Virus record (IMG/VR): IMGVR_UViG_3300017598_000263
Span: 7,047-71,046 of that record
Strand: one strand, 5' to 3'
Source: a virus
DNA length: 64,000 nt
In this document: positions 6,174-37,990 of the stretch, piece by piece
Layout of the letters: every line of letters begins with the position of its first letter
Position numbering within the stretch: the first letter of the stretch is position 1
Notes under the pieces: model-generated
Database searches by the model: none
Told to the model about the DNA's origin: nothing
Seen by the model: only the letters and a program-made list of their open reading frames with translations
Program-made: the position numbers and the translations under genes

Positions 6174-9100
6174 ATGGCTAAATTTTGTTCTATCATAAAC
6201 AACATATTTGATAAGTACATTTATGCAGTTGACCAGATTGCTGAAATACAAAAGCTAAAGGATAAACCTTTACGTTTTAATGTATGGGCAACTGAACAAA
6301 GTCATGTCAAAAATCTATTTAAAAAGAATGGAATAAAAGACCTACCTGCTACTGAAGGTATGGATAATTCTCCACATGTAATAACAAAAATTAAAAATGC
6401 TGTTAGACGTGTAAATGAGTCAGAAGCCTTAGACTCTGCTGAAAAATTTATGGAAGATATTATAGGCAGTGATGACAATATAGAATTATCTATTGCTCTC
6501 CATGAAATTATGGAGTCTGTAAAAGGTGAATCTGATAAAGCTCGTAATCTTGGTATTGATATAGTTGGTATTTCTAAAACATCAGTGCTACCAGTGGTCC
6601 CTATGTCTAGAGTAGCTGCTAGTATTGGTAGAAAAATAGTATTCCAAACAGGCCATAGATTCAGAAGTAACAAGAAAAACAGAGTTACATCTGCAGATAT
6701 TGAAACTCTATATTACACTGCAGGTAAAATGGCATTAGAGATGTTGGCAGAAAAGAAGTACATCAGCATCAACGATACGTTACCTTCTATAAAAGATTAC
6801 TTAACTGAAGCAGAGCTTCGTAAAGAAAGTGCAAATATAAATGCTGTTACCAAAAAAGGTAAAGAAGTTAGAACAGTAGCTTTAAACGAAAAGAAACTTG
6901 GTATAAAAGCTGAAAGCACAGCTAACTACTTTTTAAATAGAACTGAATCAGATTTGGCAGATACTAAACTTGGTGTTATAGCAGATGCATTGAGAGCTGT
7001 ACGAGAAATTACACAGCCATCAACAATTGTTAATCCACACACTGAAGGTAATATTGCATCTGAAGAAGACTTAAGAGATTTGGACGACGACAATGTTAAT
7101 CCAGATCCTATAAGTGATAGTGTGCGTCAAGAACTATACAAAAATCCTTTGTACGTAAATAATTCAATTCACGGACTAATGGGTCTATTGAATCGAGAAG
7201 TCAAAAAGACAGGAGATTCTGGTTCAAAAATCATGAGATCACTGCTAGGAACTAATAGCAAAGGCTTAATTGATTCTTTATTTGGAATCAAAAGATCTGA
7301 TGATTTTTCTAAAGATAAAAAAGAAAGTATTGCTGGACAAAACTTATCCAAAACTACGCCTCTTGATGACCTGGCGGAGAATTATGATGTTATCCAGGGG
7401 GATGGAGCAAATCCAGTAGGATTACATCTTCCTATGAAGCAAGGTCGTAACATACGTTTTTACTATCACAACAGCGTATTAAATCCACATGGGTCCAAGC
7501 ATAGTCGTTATACATTAACGTCTGGCAAGTACACAGTAGATATGAATTCCGCTGACTTTAAAAAACTTGTACACGGTATTTCAGAAGCTATTGGTGACAG
7601 TAAACTGACATTAGATAATTTCGTAGGCAAAACCGATAGTAAATTAAATACTGCATTAAAAGTTTATGAAGATTATAAAGCCTACATCAATAAAGGTAGT
7701 TTAAGCAGTGCAGTAGCTGAAGTAGGTAAATTAGCTAAGATTTTCCCAGGTACTGACTACGTTAGTCTTTTGACCGGGTTACAAGCAGTACAGGACATTC
7801 GTACTACACCTGTCAATGGAAAAATAACTACTGAATTCTTAGGTTCTTCAGATGCTACTGCGTCTGGAGGAACTCAAACATTTATGCAAGCTTTAGGTAC
7901 CAAAGAATCAGTTACAAAATTCTTAAGAAAATTAGGAATGCTTAAGAATGCTGATGGTAACGCTGAAGTAAAAATGAGAGATTTATATGCCATTATGGAA
8001 AATGGTATTAAAGATTTCATTGCTGGAAAAAGTATTGAAGGTTTATCAGGACAAGAACTTAAAGTTGATAAAGATGAAAAATTAACAGGTTCAAGATTGC
8101 TAATGGCTAAAACGGTAGAACTGTTATTTGATAATGGTGACAACCTTAGAAATTTAGCTAAAGATCCAACAATGGTTTTTGTATACAAACAAAGAGAGTT
8201 TGGCGCAGTAGATACAATGGCTCGTAACTTAGCTGATCGTATAGTAGATAATTTAAATAGTAAAAAAGTACGTAGCTACTTATCAACTCTTTTAGACGAT
8301 ACTGAATACGATACTGCTGACATAAAAGATTTAAATAGCAGAACTGGGCTGTATCAAAAAATTGTTACTGCAGTGAAAGACACTGGTCTTACAAGTGACC
8401 TATATAACATTTTGAAAGCTACTGTAGATAACCAATACCTGGAACATTACAATAGTCGTTTGGAGTCTGTATGGAAATTTGTAGAAGATTTAGACTTAGA
8501 TACTAACTTTAAAATTCTTCCTGCTGGAGCAGTATTATCTGGTAAAGAAAATAACATTAATGATCTAAAGCAATTTGGTATGCCAATTTCAAAAGTGCAT
8601 GAAATAGCACATGAAGTCGGGGATACTGGTGATGTGATATTAACTCGTGAACAAAAGTTAGCTAAGTCAGTGGCTGAAGTATCTACTGTGCACAGTATTG
8701 ACTCAGCACAGCTTTACCATGCATTAGATAGAGTAATGAAGAAACCTGAGTTTAAAGGAATGGGAGCTGTAGTTGTACACGATGAAGTACGTGGTCCTGT
8801 ATCTTTAGTGAGAGCTGTAGAAGTAGAGTATAGAAATATTACTAAAGAGATTACTCAGAAATATGATATTCATCAACAGATCTTACTAGCAGTAGCTGCA
8901 TATAATCCTGAAGTAGTTAACGATCCAAAATACAAAGCATTGATGACTGAGATCAATGGACATGTTGAAGAAAAAAATAAAATTATTAGTAATAGTTTTA
9001 ATGAAGACACTGACGCTTTAATTGGTGATAATGCAAAAATTAAAGAATTCGCTGGTGAAGTAGAAGTTGAAACTAAAAAAGAAACAAAGCAGGAAACTAA

Positions 9101-20074: not shown

Positions 20075-20473
20075 TTATTCTAATAAGCCATCAAGGGAAT
20101 TATCATAAAATGTTCCACTAATGTTTTCATTTAAATACAACGGATCAAATATAGCATCATGATGAAACATTAAAGCAGCTTCTAAATACGTAGCAGCTTT
20201 CTTAGTACTACATTGATAAAGAATTTCTTTAACTTTAATGGTTAACCCACTTGTAGTCTCATGACTACCTTCATATTTCACAAAAGGTAAACGTGTCATT
20301 ATTCTTCGACAACGTTTCTTGCCTTTCAAAGGGGGCTTCTTGCGTTTAGATGCTATACATTTTTTACCAATATATTTTTGTCCATTAGTATATTCAATCA
20401 TGTAAACAAAATCAGTGCACTTAGATAAAAGATCATCGTGACATAATATTTCTTTACCTTTGTAAATCCACAT
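20075..20473 (-). CDS. GIY-YIG family nuclease
   Basis: FVYMIEYTNGQKYIGKK...E...LNENI; likely start MWIYKG at 20473. Confidence 0.7.
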   Translation of the reverse strand: MWIYKGKEILCHDDLLSKCTDFVYMIEYTNGQKYIGKKCIASKRKKPPLKGKKRCRRIMTRLPFVKYEGSHETTSGLTIKVKEILYQCSTKKAATYLEAALMFHHDAIFDPLYLNENISGTFYDNSLDGLLE

Positions 20474-20474
20474 A

Positions 20475-20714
20475 TTATGCATCCAAAAATGTTGAACTAT
20501 AAGTATCATCAATAGGAGTAAAAGATAATTCTTCATCAGGAGTAATGCCATAACCAGATAGTTGATTAAGAATATCTCTATGATCATACATTACTTGATC
20601 AGAAGAACCTTGAAAGTATTCACTAAGATAAACATACTGATTTAATCTAGTATTTTTAACTATATAAGTACCTTCAAGTTTTACTGTAGCAACAGGATGT
20701 TGAAAAGTTGGCAT
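20475..20714 (-). CDS. Hypothetical protein
   Basis: 79 aa, coupled to the primase stop. Confidence 0.55.
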   Translation of the reverse strand: MPTFQHPVATVKLEGTYIVKNTRLNQYVYLSEYFQGSSDQVMYDHRDILNQLSGYGITPDEELSFTPIDDTYSSTFLDA

Positions 20715-30288: not shown

Positions 30289-30369
30289 GCTATTTTGGGT
30301 GATAAGGTATAGCTACCTCACCGACACTTACGCAGCCATAGCTACTGGTTGGAAATAACTCTCGTCATT
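30289..30369 (-). pseudogene. tmRNA (ssrA)-like remnant: tag reading frame NDESYFQPVAMAA* plus downstream pseudoknot
   Basis: The tag resembles ANDENYALAA. It is followed by GGTGAGGT/ACCTTATCACC and GCTAT/ATAGC pairings. No tmRNA tRNA-like domain was found. Confidence 0.55.
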
Positions 30370-30814
30370 TTACGTGTTTCCAGCTTCTGCGCTTTACAAT
30401 GTATTGCACAGCTGAGCCGGTTAAATTGTATTTTTCACCTAACGCTTTATACGTTATTTTTCCTTTGGCATGTTCTTCACGAATATCCTTTACTTGCTGT
30501 TCAGTAATTTTATTGTTTGTAATTACTCGACCTTTATCAGCATTATTTTCTGCTTGAGTACCTATTTTTAGATGTTCGGGGTTGCCACATTTTCTGTTGT
30601 TGCACATGTGTCTAACAACTTCACCTGGTTCAATTTTACGAATAAATAATTCAGCCATGGCTCTATGTATCAATATTCCTTTTTTATCAGCATCTCGTGA
30701 ATGCCCATATCCATCTTTATTACAATGACCGGTCCATTCTCTACAGCCTGTAATTTCATTAGTTTCCAGTTTAGCCAGAAGTCTTTCTTCTAACGTTCTT
30801 GATGGTCGTCCCAT
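30365..30814 (-). CDS. HNH homing endonuclease with C-terminal HTH
   Basis: GCREWTG..GYG...HR...VVRHMCNNRKCGNPEHLKIGTQAENNAD. Confidence 0.88.
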   Translation of the reverse strand: MGRPSRTLEERLLAKLETNEITGCREWTGHCNKDGYGHSRDADKKGILIHRAMAELFIRKIEPGEVVRHMCNNRKCGNPEHLKIGTQAENNADKGRVITNNKITEQQVKDIREEHAKGKITYKALGEKYNLTGSAVQYIVKRRSWKHVK

Positions 30815-31604: not shown

Positions 31605-32456
31605 TTATACAGAGAATGGAAAATTAATAGGATCGTGATGAGTATACCCAACTACTTCAAAATCATCCAAAGTAACCCAAGTTTCTAAATCCTTTAATGA
31701 TTTAATATCAGGGTTAATCTTTAGCTTTGGTAATGGATATGGTTCACGTTCCATCTGTACATCCCGTAGAAGCTCTAATTGATCTTCGTAGATATGCGCA
31801 TTAACAATCTTCTGGTAAGCGATACCAGGCTTATTACCTGTAATCTGAGCCATAATAGCCAGGAAGAAATATATCTGAACTTGGTTAAAATTCTGTCCTA
31901 AAGGTACATCACAAGAACGTTGGTAACTTGTTAAATACAAAGTACCATCAAGCAATGAAAATGTATGTGTATGAACACAAGGACGTAAACAACCCATATG
32001 AAATTCACCTGGGTTATAAAAACTCAATATTTCAGCACGATCATCGATACCATTAGAAAGGTTATCAACAATTTTTTGTAATTGATCAATTGCACCACCA
32101 TCAGCTTTAATCCATGAACGACCTTGGACACCATATACTCGTCCCATATCATCTTCACCTTTACGATGAGGGTTATTCAGCCAGGCTTCATTATCATTAG
32201 CATTAGCATTCCAAGTATTGGTACCTAATCTACGGAAGTCTGCAGCATTGTCATATCCACGAATATAGCCCAGAAATTCAGCTATAGCCGACTTCCAGTA
32301 GCTTTTACGGGTAGTTATGAGTGGAAACTCATTAGCACCAACGTCATACTCCATATCAGCGTTAATGACCGTTAAACAGCGTTTACCGGTACGTTTATTC
32401 TCTATCCAATGACCTTCATTAATAATACGGTGACATAAGTCTAAATACTGTTTCAT
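31605..32456 (-). CDS. thyA: Thymidylate synthase
   Basis: [18 protein letters not shown] and AHIYEDQ motifs; 283-aa Vibrio/Shewanella/Pasteurellaceae-type form. Confidence 0.95.
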
Positions 32457-33052: not shown

Positions 33053-36000
33053 TCAAGAGTCATCCCTAGCTTTATCAATAGATTTGATAGTAGCTTCCAT
33101 ATCAGCAAAAGCATCATCCAAAACTGAATTAATACCGTTTAATACTGCTATAGGATCATGTTTAGTATGATCAAAGCTATTTATAAATTCTTTTACAAAT
33201 CCAGCTACAATTCCCCAATCTTGACCTCTTTTAGCTGCTTTATTATATTCCTCAACGGAATAAGCTATTTTATGTACTTTACCCATAATCAATCCCTACC
33301 ACCAAGTTTTCTACTTAATCTATGAAGTAATTGTTTGCTACGTTTATGTTCAATGTCCATAACACCATTAGCTATCCAAATCTTTTTCCACATAGTTTGA
33401 ATAATTTGTAAATATTCACGACAATACTGAATTTGCATAACTACTCCATATAAAATACATAATCTGCCCAATAACCCCGATAGCGAATAAGAACGCTATA
33501 CCAAGGTGTATTAAAAAGCTGGTTTGTTTGTCAGTCATTTTTCATCATCCAAATCCAACTTAGCGGCTAACATTGCGTCAGCATAAGCATAAGCAAATTT
33601 AGCACTATACTTTTCATCGCCAATGTTTTCATGTATTAGTGCAGTTGATGCCGCCATAGCAAACTGATCTCTTAGAGATACTCGATAAACATCAACTGCT
33701 TCACGTAGCATTTTATTTTCTTTGATTAATTCATCTCTTGATGGTGATTTGCCGCTCATTTCATTTCTCCTAAATCTATACGAGCATTGCGGATTGCATC
33801 TAAGGTAAAGTCACTGTAGTTATAATCGCTCTCTTCATCGCAATACGCTTCGGAACATTTATCAACCTGCTTATCAATAATTGCCTGAACTTCTGCGCGG
33901 GTGTATTCTTTCTGATTTATGCCTTGATAAGCATCTTTACCTTCTTCGCCTATATACATTCACTCACCCTCCTTAATTAAGGTACATCCGATATTTACAC
34001 GCTCTATACCTTCATCGTAAACAAAAACAATTAAGTAAACTCTGTAACATACTTCCTCTTGAAAACGCAATTCATCATCAACACGCGGGACAATAGTAAT
34101 ATCTTTTATACTTATTATTTTGTCGTCATCATCTTCTATAAAATGCGCTCTTATACTCATTGCTATCTCCAAATGCTGCTTTGATTGCATGAATTATTGC
34201 ATTGCCTGCACTAACAGTAATATCTACTTCAACGAAATCGCCTATCAATTCAATAACTTCTTCCCTCTGCTCCTTCATCAGCTTTTCATGTTCTTCAATT
34301 GAGATGCTGGCGCGGGTGTCAATATGCTGCTTCATCTGAGTAAATACTTGCGCAGCACTTAGCTCATTACAGGCAATCTTATTTTCTATTTCGTTAATTT
34401 CCATCGCCCTCTCCAAAGGCTGCCTTGATTGCTCTTTCGACAGATTCAAATATATTGCAATCTCCATCCCATCCCCAGCTATGCCTATCTATAGCTTCCT
34501 CAACCTCACTCAAAACCTTTTCTTTGCGCTCAACCTTCTCAGCATCAACCTTAGACTTGAGGATGTATTCAGTTACAGGCATTGCAGGGTGATCTATTGG
34601 TTTATTAAAATAAATACCACCATCTGTACGACCTTGCCAGGGTTTTGCATAAATAACACCAGATTTATTGTCCATACATAGTTCCTTAAGATAGAGTAAT
34701 AACAGAACTTTTAGATTCAAGTTCCTGTCTTACTTCTTCTAAAAAATCATCAGAACATATTGGTAATACATCAATACCACATGTAAATATTCCAAGTATG
34801 TCAAATTGTTTGGTATCACGAATGTAACTAAAGGCAATTGTAAAAGAGATATCTTTAATAACTAATTCTTTAAGTTTACTCATATTTCATCCCACACTTC
34901 TTTAAATTCAGCTTCAAGTTCTTTATCTTCTTGAATACGATCATAAGCATCTCTAGCTTCTTTAGGCGTAGGTGAATAACACTCACTTCTTTTGATATTA
35001 GGTAGTTCATTAACAGCATTTTCAGGAATTACTAAATTCTCTTCTTCATATGATTTGGGCATATTGTTTCCTCAAAGCTTCAACAACTAAGAACTTTAAT
35101 TTTTTCATTTGATAAGGTCTTAACATCTTCTCAGCCATCTGAATAACATACACTAAATGAATAGAATTTAGCTTAGTTTGTTCAATAATATTATCAGAAA
35201 TCTGTTCAATTATCCTCAATTCGGTATGTTTCATGTTACTAACCTCATGTGTACACAGAGTATACAAAAATAGACTAAATAAAGAAGTTAAAGTGTAGAC
35301 ATTTAATTTATGGCCAAGTTTGCTGTATTGGATGTATCAGTAGATATTGCTGAATACAAAAATTCATTTCTGCTACAGATAAATCAAACATAGTTGATAG
35401 TACAAATAAGGTACCTACTTCAGCTTGATCCCAGGCAGTTCCTACAGTCATATAAAATGGCATTAGAAATCCTTTGTTAAAAATTTATAAGGAGCTACTG
35501 GATAACCAGTAGTTTCCCATTTTGTAACAAGAAGTTCATATCCAAGTTTTTTAGTAAAATGCTTAGATAACTCTGCATATACTACGTGTAATACAGTTTC
35601 ATTTGTAATACTACGTTTTGCTGTAGCAAAGAAATGAATACCTTTATAAGTAACCGTAATTGAATAATTCATAATGATAATGTCTCAATATACTTAACTT
35701 TAGCTTTTTGAAGAAAATCCAGCATATTCAATGATTCTGTAACGATATCAAAATCAGATACATCAGTTGGAAAATATACAGATGATAATTTTCTCCATTC
35801 ATAATAAGGTGTTCCATGGCATTGAGATCGTCCTGAATACATTCTTACAGGACAACCGAAACAGTCATCTACGTCCTCAGCATTATCATTCATATGATCT
35901 ACAGTTACGCATAATGGACAGTGTTCGTATCGAACACCTTCATTAAGTGCTGTTTTTTTCCAATACTCAATAGATAGAGTCAAGGAATCTAATAATCGTT

Positions 36001-36228
36001 TACTCATTAGTTTAAATCCTTCATATAATTAATATCATCTTTACGACGGATATAAATACCCCACATAGGTATACGTATAAATACCCAACCTTCAGGTAAT
36101 TCTGCTTCTGGAACTGGATAAGGTGATGCAGAATCATGCCATCTACCTTTGTATGGATGCTTAATACCGTACCCATCTTCATGACGGATCTGAGTAGCTT
36201 CACATTCTTTAATAGTTAAAGTAATCAT
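33053..36228 (-). CDS. Cluster of about 14 small hypothetical early ORFs
   Basis: Packed 60-112-aa ORFs with RBS. 33535-33759 carries the widespread phage motif LRD.FA...AY..ADAML. 35669-36007 is Cys-rich. Confidence 0.55.
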
Positions 36229-36320
36229 TAATTGTGTACCTCATAGTCTCTCCCCAAAGGGTTGTAGAGCGTGTACTGACGCCTCGTTGTTCATTATACA
36301 AAGATAACTACACTATGAGC

Positions 36321-36470
36321 AGCGAACAGGAGGGGTCGAACCTCCGATAGTCAGGTACCTTAGACCTCTACTGAATAGCTCTTTCAATAAAGTTAACCGG
36401 TATTTAACTAAGGTAAATTCCTAATGCACCTGAGTATCAGTCAGGCCGCTATGCCACCGCGTATGTTCGC
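36321..36470 (-). ncRNA. tRNA-like RNA (anticodon GAU, Ile-type) with an 83-nt variable region
   Basis: Acceptor GCGAACA/TGTTCGC, D arm CGC/GCG with GG in the loop, anticodon arm CCTGA-CTGATAC-TCAGG, T arm GGAGG-TTCGACC-CCTCC. No encoded CCA. Confidence 0.75.
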
Positions 36471-36474
36471 ACAA

Positions 36475-36660
36475 TTAACCTATGTTCAAACCCATAAGTT
36501 CAAATAAAGCTTTATCACGTTCAGCTATTGTAGCTTTACGCCATTTAGTCCAAACAAAATCACCTGGACCCATAGCAGGTACAGATTTACGTACATAAAG
36601 TACATGCTTACCGGTAAAGGTAGTTTTGAGGGTATATTGAATACCAATTGAGCTAGGCAT
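36475..36660 (-). CDS. Hypothetical protein
   Basis: 61 aa, GGAG RBS. Confidence 0.55.
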   Translation of the reverse strand: MPSSIGIQYTLKTTFTGKHVLYVRKSVPAMGPGDFVWTKWRKATIAERDKALFELMGLNIG

Positions 36661-36668
36661 AAAGACTC

Positions 36669-37217
36669 CTACTTAAGTTTTTTATTTACTAATTTAATCA
36701 TGGCATCACGTACACCACGGCGACCTTTAGGATGGAATGACATGCCATAATTTACTAAGTGCAAATCAAACATATCTGCTTCTTTCTCAGGCAAACTGAA
36801 TGTATAAGCACGATCACCACCTTCAGCACCTTCGCCTTTAGCAGGATTCTTACTAGTAAAGTCTTTATATCGTTTAATAAAGGTTTTTACAGATAATTTA
36901 CGTGTCATATCCAGCAAGCCAAATCGGAAATCTTTCCAGCTAATAGCAGCCAGGATTTCTTTACACTGAATTTTTGTATAGCCAAATTTCTCAATAGCAT
37001 TAACAACAGCAGTGTAGCTATACACAGTAGATATATTCATTTTTACATGAGTTCTACAGAAGCCTTTCCAGCCACGATATTTAGTCAATTTCCAAACAAT
37101 TACATTCTTTGCACGATGCAAAGTAAATGCAGCTGCTAATTTAGCATTAGACAGGTTTGTTACAGATACAGTCACTTCAGCAATTATTTCCTGTATCAAT
37201 TTTTCTTCTTTAGTCAT
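36669..37217 (-). CDS. Hypothetical basic protein
   Basis: 182 aa, GGAG RBS. Confidence 0.65.
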   Translation of the reverse strand: MTKEEKLIQEIIAEVTVSVTNLSNAKLAAAFTLHRAKNVIVWKLTKYRGWKGFCRTHVKMNISTVYSYTAVVNAIEKFGYTKIQCKEILAAISWKDFRFGLLDMTRKLSVKTFIKRYKDFTSKNPAKGEGAEGGDRAYTFSLPEKEADMFDLHLVNYGMSFHPKGRRGVRDAMIKLVNKKLK

Positions 37218-37239
37218 ACCTTTTCTCCGGTATTGGTTA

Positions 37240-37660
37240 ATGAAAACTAATATAAAAGCATACTAGCGGGAAATCGTTCTCTCCAAGAGGCGGTCTGTTT
37301 CTCGACTACCTACGATTCTCGTCAGCCAAAAGGCAAGTTTTTACTACTAGTATACTTTTAAATTAGCCCTGGTATTTCAACCAGGGTCGTCTGTGGACTA
37401 AGGTGGTCTACCATCGGAATATAGTGAATCTCCTTAATTAAGTTACATTTTTAAAACTACCGGAGGAGAATCCAGTAGCTTTAAAAGTGACTCTCATTGG
37501 ATATAGGGAAAGAGTGGCCCTAATTCGATTCTTTAAAGTTATTGAGGTGGTCATACTGCATCACTTGCGGTCCATAAAATGGTTATCCGTTTTAGTGAAT
37601 TAAGTATGATCGGTGCCTTTTGCCAGGGTTTACTGGTGCACACACACCTCAATACCAATA
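37240..37660 (-). ncRNA. Cluster of structured non-coding elements
   Basis: About 420 nt with no convincing ORF and several long stems (see findings). Confidence 0.5.
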
Positions 37661-37663
37661 CAA

Positions 37664-37990
37664 CTATGCCGCCATAGCTTTAAGAGCCTGATGCATTTCA
37701 TCTTCAGACGCATTATCAGCAAAGGCATCGTTGTATTCTTGCTCAAGTTGATCTTCAGGCTCAAGAGCACTGAACTTAACCAACCCTTCAACGTACCAGC
37801 GTTGACCTTTAACATGATCAGACATAGCTGAATCATCTTCAGCAGCTTTAGCAACAGCTAACTGCTCAATCAACGCTTCAATGGCATCTTCATCCATTTC
37901 AGGTGTTATTGCTAACTCCTTAATCTTCAGAATTTTGCCTTTACACTTCTTAAAAGCCAGTGCTAGTGCTTGTGGATTTTTATCCATCAT
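37664..37990 (-). CDS. Acidic hypothetical early protein
   Basis: Likely start MMDKNPQ after GGAGG; D/E-rich; ends in AMAA. Confidence 0.65.
   Translation of the reverse strand: MMDKNPQALALAFKKCKGKILKIKELAITPEMDEDAIEALIEQLAVAKAAEDDSAMSDHVKGQRWYVEGLVKFSALEPEDQLEQEYNDAFADNASEDEMHQALKAMAA

What the first reader, a model, noticed from the sequence alone, without database searches (positions are those of the whole stretch)
36321..36470. tRNA-like RNA with all four canonical arms plus an 83-nt branched variable arm
Seen: a perfect 7-bp acceptor stem, U8-A9, a 3-bp D stem with GG in the loop, a 5-bp anticodon stem with loop CU-GAU-AC, and a canonical T arm. The variable region (36428-36346) is 83 nt and itself folded: TTAGG/CCTGA and TACCTTAG/CTAAGGTA close short inner hairpins (GTTAA/TTAAC, CTTT/AAAG). 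CCTGACT occurs twice, so TCAGG has two possible partners, which could make a switch. U73 and C38 depart from tRNA-Ile identity, and no CCA is encoded. Known: class II variable regions are only about 10-24 nt, and the insert is too short for a group I/II intron. Inference: an undescribed tRNA-mimic ncRNA, such as a decoy for anticodon nucleases or synthetases or a tRNA scaffold displaying an RNA domain. tRNA scanners would probably miss it.
Basis: partly seen in the sequence, partly recalled or inferred. Interest (0 to 1): 0.85.

Follow-up and report, generated by a model that had tools for sequence, protein, structure and literature searches.

The report
Phage tRNA gene with 83-base insert
A marine phage carries one gene shaped like a complete transfer RNA but with 83 extra bases where a few normally sit; I found no relative of it, so whether it is a working oddity or a recently damaged tRNA gene remains open.

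Summary
On the minus strand, 36470-36321 forms a complete tRNA frame with 83 nt (36428-36346) between the anticodon stem and the T stem: a perfect 7-bp acceptor stem, U8, a 3-bp D stem with GG, a perfect 5-bp anticodon stem with loop CUGAUAC, and a canonical T arm. Rfam's tRNA model scores it 31.9 bits (cut-off 29) only in a short permissive search; default scanners miss it. A frame scanner of my own finds it once in the 71-kb genome and never in 200 shuffled genomes.

It is a singleton. DNA patterns, BLAST, a covariance model and syntenic loci gave no homologue, and relatives lack any tRNA at that site. ARAGORN's alternative reading, tRNA-Ser with a 59-nt intron, is worthless as evidence, because the same mode calls an intron tRNA in 209 of 300 shuffled-insert versions.

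The identity marks conflict: a glycine-type acceptor end, an isoleucine anticodon, and G14 instead of A14. The "switch" has only weak to moderate support.

My best reading is a structurally intact, insert-retaining tRNA-shaped RNA of an N4-like marine phage. A freshly disrupted tRNA gene is a serious rival. The scan has noted giant-armed tRNA-like genes on other DNA before, and this one fits neither of the two families I could compare it with.

The parts
36321..36470 (-). whole tRNA-shaped gene, 150 nt including the discriminator U; no CCA encoded
   Evidence: Rfam tRNA 31.9 bits; frame scanner: 1 hit in the genome, 0 in 200 shuffles
36464..36470 (-). acceptor stem, 5' strand GCGAACA (G1 C2 G3 are glycine-type)
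   Evidence: (I3, 100% complementary)
36447..36461 (-). D arm: 3-bp stem CGC/GCG, 9-nt loop with GG; G at position 14 where A is near-universal
   Evidence: A at that position in 35 of 37 distinct host-lineage tRNAs
36429..36445 (-). anticodon arm: perfect 5-bp stem, 7-nt loop CUGAUAC, anticodon GAU at 36438-36436
36346..36428 (-). 83-nt insert in the variable region; single copy in the genome
   Evidence: z -2.38; no other copy
36366..36392 (-). most robust element of the insert: 10-bp hairpin (nt 79-88/96-105) with 7-nt loop AGAGCUA
   Evidence: pair probabilities 0.81-0.99 with the cloverleaf enforced
36346..36363 (-). 3' arm of the 18-nt inverted repeat; contains the second CCUGACU and UAUC, and can pair with the anticodon and the 3' strand of the anticodon stem (partner arm 36421-36438)
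   Evidence: (I1, 83% complementary)
36329..36345 (-). T arm GGAGG-UUCGACC-CCUCC
36321..36328 (-). acceptor stem 3' strand UGUUCGC plus discriminator U73
36475..36660 (-). upstream 61-aa ORF whose stop codon ends 4 nt before G1 of the RNA; 70% identical homologue in L005, where no tRNA follows

Best explanation
This is a real, structurally intact tRNA-type gene of an N4-like marine podovirus whose host is probably a marine gammaproteobacterium of the Alteromonas kind. Its variable region has grown to 83 nt. Shown: the full 7/5 cloverleaf frame with 20 of 20 Watson-Crick stem pairs; the position of the insert; its single-copy, lineage-specific status; and its place inside a leftward run of small early or middle genes, with no promoter or terminator hit of its own. 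Inferred: it is transcribed with its neighbours. RNase P cuts it free at G1, 4 nt after the upstream stop codon. The 3' end is trimmed and host enzymes add CCA. The result is a roughly 150-nt tRNA-shaped RNA that keeps the insert, which projects from the variable-region side as in class II tRNAs. Its core is a 10-bp hairpin, and its 3' end can alternatively pair with the anticodon and the 3' strand of the anticodon stem. Because the charging marks conflict (glycine-type acceptor end, isoleucine anticodon, G14), I think it more likely acts as a non-standard or non-decoding tRNA look-alike than as a mainstream isoleucine tRNA. That could mean an RNase P processing site, or a decoy or ligand for tRNA-binding proteins. 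What it does is not shown.
For: Rfam tRNA 31.9 bits against cut-off 29, full model 1-71. Frame scanner: 1 hit in the genome, 0 hits in 200 shuffles. No mismatch or G-U in the 7+3+5+5 stem pairs, which argues against long decay. The cloverleaf is only 2.1 kcal/mol above the minimum-energy fold (-48.7 against -50.8). No promoter-like or terminator-like site on the minus strand in 35900-37700. The insert is not a repeat and matches no Rfam family. No RNA ligase or splicing enzyme in the 29 window ORFs scanned against Pfam. Identity: U73, G1-C72, C2-G71 and G3-C70 are the four bacterial Gly acceptor determinants (Table 1 of PMC9976931), and this signature occurs in 2 of 37 distinct tRNAs of a host-lineage genome, both of them Gly. 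Of the Ile determinants, only G34, A35, U36 and A37 are present. Engineered tRNAs with hairpin aptamers on the V-arm stay active in E. coli (PMC7590224, abstract and sections 2.6 and 3), so an enlarged arm need not kill a tRNA. Two related phages carry their own aberrant tRNA-like elements (L004:6743-6820, 28.4 bits; a 168-nt closed frame in PP212876.1).
Against: There is no homologue anywhere I could search, so no covariation and no evidence of selection on the insert. The four syntenic relatives with downstream sequence (L004-L007) lack any tRNA at that site. The insert alone folds only modestly better than shuffles (z -2.38; 5 of 200 shuffles as good) and has several competing folds. In the thermodynamic ensemble the anticodon stem has P 0.024. 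G14 breaks the near-universal U8-A14 contact. There is no RNA evidence of any kind. The aberrant elements in relatives share no detectable sequence homology or position with this one, so they may just show that tRNA genes decay in this phage group.
Confidence: 0.45

Rival explanations
1. It is a dead or dying gene. An ordinary phage tRNA gene was recently hit by an insertion or a local rearrangement of about 80 nt, for example a template-switch event that made an inverted copy of the neighbouring anticodon-arm sequence. The product has no function.
For: A singleton with no homologue. Absent at the syntenic site of relatives. The insert's 3' end is an 83%-complementary inverted copy of the adjacent anticodon-arm region (I1), as a replication template switch would leave. 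The fold of the insert is only weakly non-random. Identity marks conflict and A14 is lost. Relatives hold other defective-looking tRNA-like elements.
Against: All 20 stem pairs of the four arms are intact, and the anticodon and T loops are canonical, so any disruption must be very recent. No insert-free version was found to show what was disrupted. The insert is not a repeated mobile element in this genome.
Confidence: 0.3
2. The insert is removed or cut after transcription. It would be either an intervening sequence excised by a double-strand-specific RNase, leaving a nicked two-piece tRNA, or an unknown kind of intron, giving a normal-sized tRNA with anticodon GAU.
For: The long, nearly continuous hairpin of the minimum-energy fold is the sort of helix RNase III cuts (established knowledge, not tested here). 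With the insert deleted in silico, ARAGORN calls a tRNA-Ile at up to 110-115% of its default thresholds.
Against: The insert is too short for a group I or II intron and has no Rfam match. The host is probably bacterial, so no splicing endonuclease of the archaeal kind is expected. No ligase or RtcB-like gene in the 29 ORFs scanned. No RNA data.
Confidence: 0.1
3. It is a class II tRNA-Ser(GCU) with a 59-nt intron after G34 in the anticodon loop. This is ARAGORN's intron-mode reading.
For: ARAGORN -i reports it over the same 150 nt. The 3-bp D stem is typical of class II tRNAs. The in-silico spliced form passes ARAGORN at up to 110%.
Against: ARAGORN -i reports a whole-frame intron tRNA in 209 of 300 versions with a shuffled insert, so the call is uninformative. 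The reading needs a 4-bp anticodon stem with a C-U mismatch and a poorly paired 24-nt variable region. The unspliced fold that enforces it costs 18.4 kcal/mol (-32.4 against -50.8). Ser determinants G73, G2-C71 and C11-G24 are not met. No splicing mechanism for such an intron is known in bacteria.
Confidence: 0.03
4. There is no gene: the cloverleaf is a chance pattern.
For: Default scanners do not call it.
Against: Rfam E 5.8e-05 locally. Scaled to the whole window by my own arithmetic, that is about 0.01. No frame in 200 shuffled genomes.
Confidence: 0.02

Closest known systems
Class II bacterial tRNAs (Ser, Leu, Tyr; Rfam RF00005)
   Same: Full cloverleaf, a 3-bp D stem, and an extra arm leaving the core between the anticodon stem and the T stem.
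   Different: This one is 83 nt and branched, does not start with a clean stem next to position 44/45, has 10 unpaired nt before the T stem, and carries the class I anticodon GAU.
allo-tRNAs and (8/4) phage tRNAs (Mukai et al. 2017, PMC5389517; passages read)
   Same: Non-canonical long-armed tRNAs of bacteria and phages with unexpected anticodons. A long V-arm with G73 or U73 is read there as a sign of serine charging, and this RNA has U73.
   Different: allo-tRNAs have an 8/4 or 9/3 acceptor/T-stem layout and a tRNA-Sec-like D arm. This RNA is 7/5 with a 3-bp D stem, and its arm is several times longer.
Engineered aptamer-tagged tRNAs with a pseudo-anticodon V-arm (Mukai 2020, PMC7590224; abstract and sections 2.6 and 3 read)
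   Same: A tRNA body displaying a foreign hairpin domain on the variable arm, still usable in translation or sequestered by a binding protein.
   Different: Those are designed constructs with single hairpins on an allo-tRNA chassis. This is a natural gene with a branched 83-nt insert and no known partner.
Giant-armed tRNA-like genes noted earlier in this scan (Asp-type, Bacteroidota and their phages, e1-2167918 and e1-5807363; Lys-type gut-phage family, e1-3451191)
   Same: A tRNA frame with a 68-120-nt domain at the variable-arm position, missed by standard finders, also phage-borne.
   Different: Those are AI notes whose sequences I could not see. They describe conserved families with GUC or UUU anticodon loops. 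This RNA has GAU, a probable gammaproteobacterial host, no look-alike in the scan's index and no family.
Phage tRNA-Ile with two anticodon arms (UAU plus GAU), noted earlier in this scan (e1-126203, e1-1192678)
   Same: A phage tRNA that displays a GAU anticodon-type hairpin plus extra structure between the D and T arms.
   Different: Those are 93-104 nt with a UAU arm followed by a GAU arm. Here the GAU arm sits in the canonical place, there is no UAU hairpin, and the only other anticodon-shaped hairpin (loop AUACCGG) is thermodynamically improbable (P 0.06 or less).

Membership tests
tRNA (Rfam RF00005) | Four-armed cloverleaf scoring at or above the gathering cut-off of 29 bits | tested here: met
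   31.9 bits, model 1-71. Only in a 401-nt permissive search; not reached.
tRNA (Rfam RF00005) | Conserved core bases U8, A14, G18-G19 and the T-loop UUCRA | tested here: inconclusive
   U8, GG and UUCGA are present. Position 14 is G, whereas A stands there in 35 of 37 distinct host-lineage tRNAs.
tRNA (class I or class II) | Variable region of 4-5 nt (class I) or a single arm of 10 nt or more (class II) | tested here: not met
   83 nt, with several competing helices. Size classes from PMC7609411.
Bacterial tRNA-Ile(GAU) | Identity set A73, C4-G69, U12-A23, C29-G41, G34, A35, U36, A37, A38 (Table 1 of PMC9976931; the D-loop determinants G16, U20 and U21 were left unscored) | tested here: not met
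   Present: G34, A35, U36, A37. Absent: U73, A4-U69, C12-G23, U29-A41, C38. The body is the least similar of all to the host-lineage tRNA-Ile(GAU) (score 3 against a best of 15).
Bacterial tRNA-Gly | U73, G1-C72, C2-G71, G3-C70 and C35, C36 | tested here: not met
   All four acceptor-end determinants are present (signature unique to the 2 Gly species among 37 host-lineage tRNAs), but the anticodon has A35 U36.
Bacterial tRNA-Ser (ARAGORN intron reading) | G73, G2-C71, C11-G24, a large variable arm, and a real intron | tested here: not met
   U73, C2-G71, G11-C24. The intron call recurs in 209 of 300 shuffled-insert controls.
allo-tRNA | 8/4 or 9/3 acceptor/T-stem layout | tested here: not met
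   7-bp acceptor stem and 5-bp T stem. Definition from PMC5389517.
Group I or group II intron in a tRNA gene | A ribozyme core of some 200 nt or more (size recalled), usually in the anticodon loop | tested here: not met
   The insert is 83 nt, lies in the variable region, and has no Rfam intron or ribozyme match at E up to 10.
tmRNA | A tRNA-Ala-like domain with G3-U70 plus a tag reading frame | tested here: not met
   ARAGORN -m finds none. G3-C70. The only tmRNA-type Rfam hit is a 12-bit match on the opposite strand.
Scan's Asp-type giant-armed tRNA-like family (Bacteroidota and their phages) | An Asp-type GUC anticodon loop, a Bacteroidota or Bacteroidota-phage setting, and sequence kinship | tested here: not met
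   Anticodon GAU. ThyA and the nearest cultured phages point to marine Gammaproteobacteria. No look-alike in the scan's index.

The most novel reading that the evidence does not exclude
The RNA is a maintained tRNA mimic with split identity, a glycine-type acceptor end joined to an isoleucine anticodon. Its giant arm would act as an intramolecular mask: the 3' end of the insert pairs with the anticodon and the 3' strand of the anticodon stem. The RNA would then toggle between a tRNA shape and a closed rod, and serve the phage as a decoy or regulator for host tRNA-binding enzymes (synthetases, anticodon nucleases, modification enzymes) or as a deliberately mis-charging tRNA.
Probability: 0.1. 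Interest if true: 0.8.

Novelty: new variant of a known kind. Interest (0 to 1): 0.4.

Why it matters
If the 150-nt RNA is made and stable, it would be a natural case of a tRNA body carrying a large extra domain. In the papers I read, only engineered tRNAs with enlarged variable arms were described. It would add to the growing set of non-canonical phage tRNA-like genes that standard annotation misses. Its mixed charging marks would make it a useful probe of how synthetases and tRNA-targeting defences read tRNAs. If it is a freshly broken gene, it is a snapshot of how phage tRNA genes decay, and of little wider interest. With a single copy and no relatives, the sequence alone cannot decide between the two.

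Tried and rejected
**Homologue hunts that found nothing**
- blastn of the 1.2-kb region and of the 191-nt element against 50,697 phage records: no match, and only hits with E of 2 or more.
- Exact IMG/VR patterns from the anticodon arm, the T arm plus acceptor, and the D arm: 0 hits each.
- A loops-only IMG/VR pattern: 3 hits, all without a tRNA frame.
- Protein-guided scans of IMG/VR: the RNAP gave L001-L003, 38% identical, with no tRNA by ARAGORN or Rfam. The 182-aa neighbour profile gave none, and the 61-aa neighbour gave none.
- A JGI metagenome scan with the 182-aa profile gave 5 loci, L004-L008. Four have downstream sequence and none has a tRNA at the syntenic site. L008 ends at the gene.
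- Covariance model R1 of the 150 nt found only itself in 145,388 bases of window and loci. In 151 genomes sampled from the order of G003 it found only ordinary tRNAs and spans of tandem tRNA arrays at 35 bits or less. ARAGORN on 5 of the 8 returned loci showed tandem tRNA-Arg(ACG) arrays under the long spans.

**Sequencing runs.** None was listed, and no RNA holder was listed.

**Tests that did not discriminate or support**
- ARAGORN thresholds did not separate the two 'mature' readings; both pass at about 110%.
- The insert has no second copy in the genome.
- The ACC 'second anticodon arm' idea is thermodynamically unsupported (P 0.06 or less) and post hoc, so I kept it only inside the novel reading.
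- The body is not close to any of the 37 distinct host-lineage tRNAs (best score 15 of about 50, for Arg(ACG) and Gly(UCC)).
- The cassette-2 region has no Rfam family at E up to 10.
- Supplementary files of the papers were not opened.

Full report
**What is there.** On the minus strand, 36470-36321 reads as a complete tRNA:
- a 7-bp acceptor stem with no mismatch (also pair I3);
- U8 A9;
- a 3-bp D stem closing a 9-nt loop with GG;
- one connector G;
- a perfect 5-bp anticodon stem with the 7-nt loop CUGAUAC (U33, anticodon GAU, A37);
- 83 nt (36428-36346);
- a canonical T arm (5-bp stem, loop UUCGACC);
- the 3' acceptor strand and a U discriminator. No CCA follows.

Rfam's tRNA model aligns the whole stretch end to end at 31.9 bits (cut-off 29, E 5.8e-05) and treats the extra bases as one insertion in the variable region, but only when 401 nt are searched with permissive filters.

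I wrote a simple scanner that looks for a T arm directly followed by an acceptor 3' strand, a complementary 5' strand followed by U8, and a D arm with GG. It finds this frame once in the 71,046-nt genome and never in 200 block-shuffled genomes.

**Setting.** The window is part of a 71-kb viral record with direct terminal repeats. Its genes indicate an N4-like podovirus: DNA polymerase, primase, helicase, RNA polymerase pieces, terminase, major head protein and a 2,097-aa protein.
- The nearest cultured relatives are two Alteromonas podoviruses of 68-71 kb, with the RNAP 38-39% identical.
- The phage's thymidylate synthase is 77-86% identical to those of the 80 best genome contigs matches, nearly all marine Gammaproteobacteria.
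- A bacterial host, probably of that group, is therefore likely, and an archaeal-type splicing system is not expected.
- The gene lies in a leftward run of small ORFs. The upstream 61-aa ORF ends 4 nt before G1, the next ORF starts about 90 nt after the discriminator, and no promoter-like or terminator-like site was found on that strand.
- It is the only tRNA-like gene in the genome.

**Two readings of the same 150 nt.** ARAGORN in intron mode calls the stretch a class II tRNA-Ser(GCU) with a 59-nt intron after G34. I discount this for four reasons:
- The same mode calls a whole-frame intron-containing tRNA in 209 of 300 versions in which only the insert was shuffled, so the call is not evidence.
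- The reading needs a 4-bp anticodon stem with a C-U mismatch and a badly paired 24-nt variable region.
- Enforcing it on the unspliced RNA costs 18.4 kcal/mol (-32.4 against -50.8).
- Serine determinants G73, G2-C71 and C11-G24 are absent.

Threshold titration of ARAGORN on the in-silico 'mature' forms did not separate the readings, since both pass at up to about 110%. The contiguous, perfect GAU arm is the parsimonious anticodon arm.

**The insert.**
- It is single-copy in the genome. Apart from the self-match, there are only short chance-level matches of 17 nt or less.
- It matches no Rfam family at E up to 10.
- On its own it folds only modestly better than shuffles (z -2.38; 5 of 200 shuffles as good).
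- With the cloverleaf enforced, its one robust element is a 10-bp hairpin (nt 79-88/96-105, pair probabilities 0.81-0.99).

**The 'switch'.** CCTGACT does occur twice (D2). By my own estimate a single 7-mer repeat in 191 nt is about what chance gives. More telling is an 18-nt, 83%-complementary inverted repeat (I1). It lets the 3' end of the insert pair with the anticodon, A37 and the 3' strand of the anticodon stem, and this long hairpin is the minimum-energy fold. In the ensemble the anticodon stem has P 0.024 and its 3' strand pairs into the insert with P 0.966. Only 1.7% of 300 shuffled inserts reach that value. Against this, the energy gap between the minimum-energy fold and the cloverleaf (-2.1 kcal/mol) equals the shuffle mean (-2.09), and 12% of shuffles depress the anticodon stem as much. 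Support for a switch is therefore weak to moderate, and the same repeat could be the scar of a template-switch rearrangement.

**Identity marks.** Table 1 of Giege and Eriani 2023 (PMC9976931, passages read) lists these bacterial determinants:
- Ile: A73, C4-G69, U12-A23, G16, U20, U21, C29-G41, C/G34, A35, U36, A37 and A38.
- Gly: U73, G1-C72, C2-G71, G3-C70, C35 and C36.

This RNA has only G34, A35, U36 and A37 of the Ile set. It has all four acceptor-end Gly determinants but not C35 or C36. I did not score the D-loop determinants G16, U20 and U21, because the D loop cannot be numbered with confidence.

I then took a complete genome of the likely host lineage, with 67 tRNA genes and 37 distinct sequences. 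In it, the G1-C2-G3, matching 3' strand and U73 signature occurs in the 2 Gly species and in none of the other 35, and position 14 is A in 35 of 37, where this RNA has G. The body resembles none of those tRNAs closely: the best score is 15 of about 50, for Arg(ACG) and Gly(UCC), and tRNA-Ile(GAU) scores 3. Mukai 2017 reads a long V-arm plus G73 or U73 as a sign of serine charging in allo-tRNAs (PMC5389517). That is a third possible identity, although this RNA lacks the 8/4 or 9/3 layout that defines allo-tRNAs. Which amino acid, if any, is attached cannot be told from the sequence.

**No relatives.** Every route failed.
- blastn against the phage collection.
- Three exact DNA patterns and one loops-only pattern against IMG/VR.
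- The covariance model R1 against all fetched loci and against 151 genomes sampled from the order of G003. There the only long 'hits' checked were tandem tRNA-Arg(ACG) copies closing on each other.
- The 182-aa neighbour has only 3 homologues among 5.8 billion clustered proteins.
- IMG/VR gave three distant RNAP relatives without tRNAs.
- The metagenome scan gave five loci. L005 keeps both the 182-aa gene and the 61-aa gene (70% identical), and its next ORF starts about 40 nt after the latter. L006 and L007 run straight into ORFs, L004 has no tRNA after the shared gene, and L008 ends at the gene.

No sequencing run was listed.

**Odd tRNA-like elements in relatives.**
- L004 has a 78-nt element at 6743-6820 that scores 28.4 bits for tRNA, with an 11-13-nt anticodon loop, a shifted acceptor register and an encoded CCA.
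- Alteromonas phage R22Y (PP212876.1, 38392-38559, minus strand) has a 168-nt closed frame: a perfect 7-bp acceptor-type helix, a good D arm with A14, GG and A21, a canonical T arm, and a long branched interior that contains a second T-arm-like hairpin.

Neither shares detectable sequence homology or position with the window's RNA, and R22Y's element matched only its own record in the phage collection. Either this phage group tolerates or uses non-canonical tRNA-shaped RNAs, or its tRNA genes decay often. I cannot tell which.

**Earlier notes of this scan** (AI notes, used as leads only). Giant-armed tRNA-like genes have been noted before on other DNA: an Asp-type family of Bacteroidota and their phages, a Lys-type gut-phage family, and phage tRNA-Ile genes with UAU and GAU arms in tandem. 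This RNA fits neither of the two families I could compare it with, the Asp-type and the two-arm Ile type. Its anticodon is GAU, its host is probably gammaproteobacterial, it has no UAU arm, and the index holds no look-alike outside this window. I did not compare it with the Lys-type family.

**In print.** Five full-text searches turned up no description of a natural tRNA or phage tRNA-like gene with a variable region of this size. The review of non-canonical natural tRNAs gives class I as 4-5 nt and class II as 10 or more (PMC7609411, passages). The nearest precedent is engineered: tRNAs with hairpin aptamers or a pseudo-anticodon arm on the V-arm remain active or can be sequestered in E. coli (PMC7590224, abstract and sections 2.6 and 3). 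Subscription journals and supplements were not searched.

**Verdict.**
- Best reading (0.45): a structurally intact, insert-retaining tRNA-shaped RNA, released from the operon transcript by RNase P and 3' processing, and more likely a non-standard tRNA look-alike than a normal isoleucine decoder.
- Main rival (0.30): a recently disrupted tRNA gene. The intact 20 of 20 stem pairs speak against long decay. The singleton status, G14, the conflicting identity marks and the scar-like inverted repeat speak for an accident.
- Excision of the insert (0.10), the Ser-intron reading (0.03) and chance (0.02) are less likely.

No RNA ligase or splicing enzyme was found among the 29 window ORFs scanned against Pfam. 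I rate it a new variant of a known kind, with moderate interest (0.4) because nothing can yet show that the insert is kept by selection.

Noticed in passing
PP212876.1 38392-38559, minus strand (= L091:1392-1559): Alteromonas phage vB_AmeP-R22Y, an unannotated record, holds a 168-nt closed tRNA frame. It has a perfect 7-bp acceptor-type helix, a D arm with A14, GG and A21, a canonical T arm and A73 followed by CCU. A long branched interior contains a second T-arm-like hairpin. Rfam scores only parts of it (19.5 and 13.4 bits). No other phage record in the collection matched it.
   Followed up: partly
L004:6743-6823: A metagenomic relative carries a 78-nt tRNA-like element just under Rfam's cut-off (28.4 against 29 bits). 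It has an 11-13-nt anticodon loop, an acceptor stem that pairs only in a shifted register, and an encoded CCA. ARAGORN misses it.
   Followed up: partly
Cassette 2 lies in the 446-nt gap upstream of the conserved 182-aa gene and holds hammerhead-core-like words. No Rfam family matches 37180-37680 at E up to 10. Cassette 1 lies about 130 nt downstream of an HNH endonuclease gene.
   Followed up: partly
window 20075-20587 (-) and 30365-30814 (-): Two homing-endonuclease-type genes: a SegE-like GIY-YIG gene (Pfam PF19835, E 2.2e-15) between the primase and the polymerase exonuclease genes, and an HNH gene (PF13392, E 6.4e-08) downstream of thyA. No group I intron was detected by Rfam in the window.
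   Followed up: no
window 31605-32456 (-): The phage thymidylate synthase is 77-86% identical to those of the 80 best genome contigs matches, nearly all marine Gammaproteobacteria (Colwellia, Photobacterium, Pseudidiomarina, Bermanella and others). This suggests a recent host-derived gene and gives a host hint.
   Followed up: partly
genomes of the order of G003, e.g. L123-L125, L129, L130: Tandem arrays of 3-6 identical tRNA-Arg(ACG) genes flanked by tRNA-Ser(GCU). A covariance model with a long internal insert matches across two neighbouring copies, which is a trap when searching for long-armed tRNA-like genes.
   Followed up: yes
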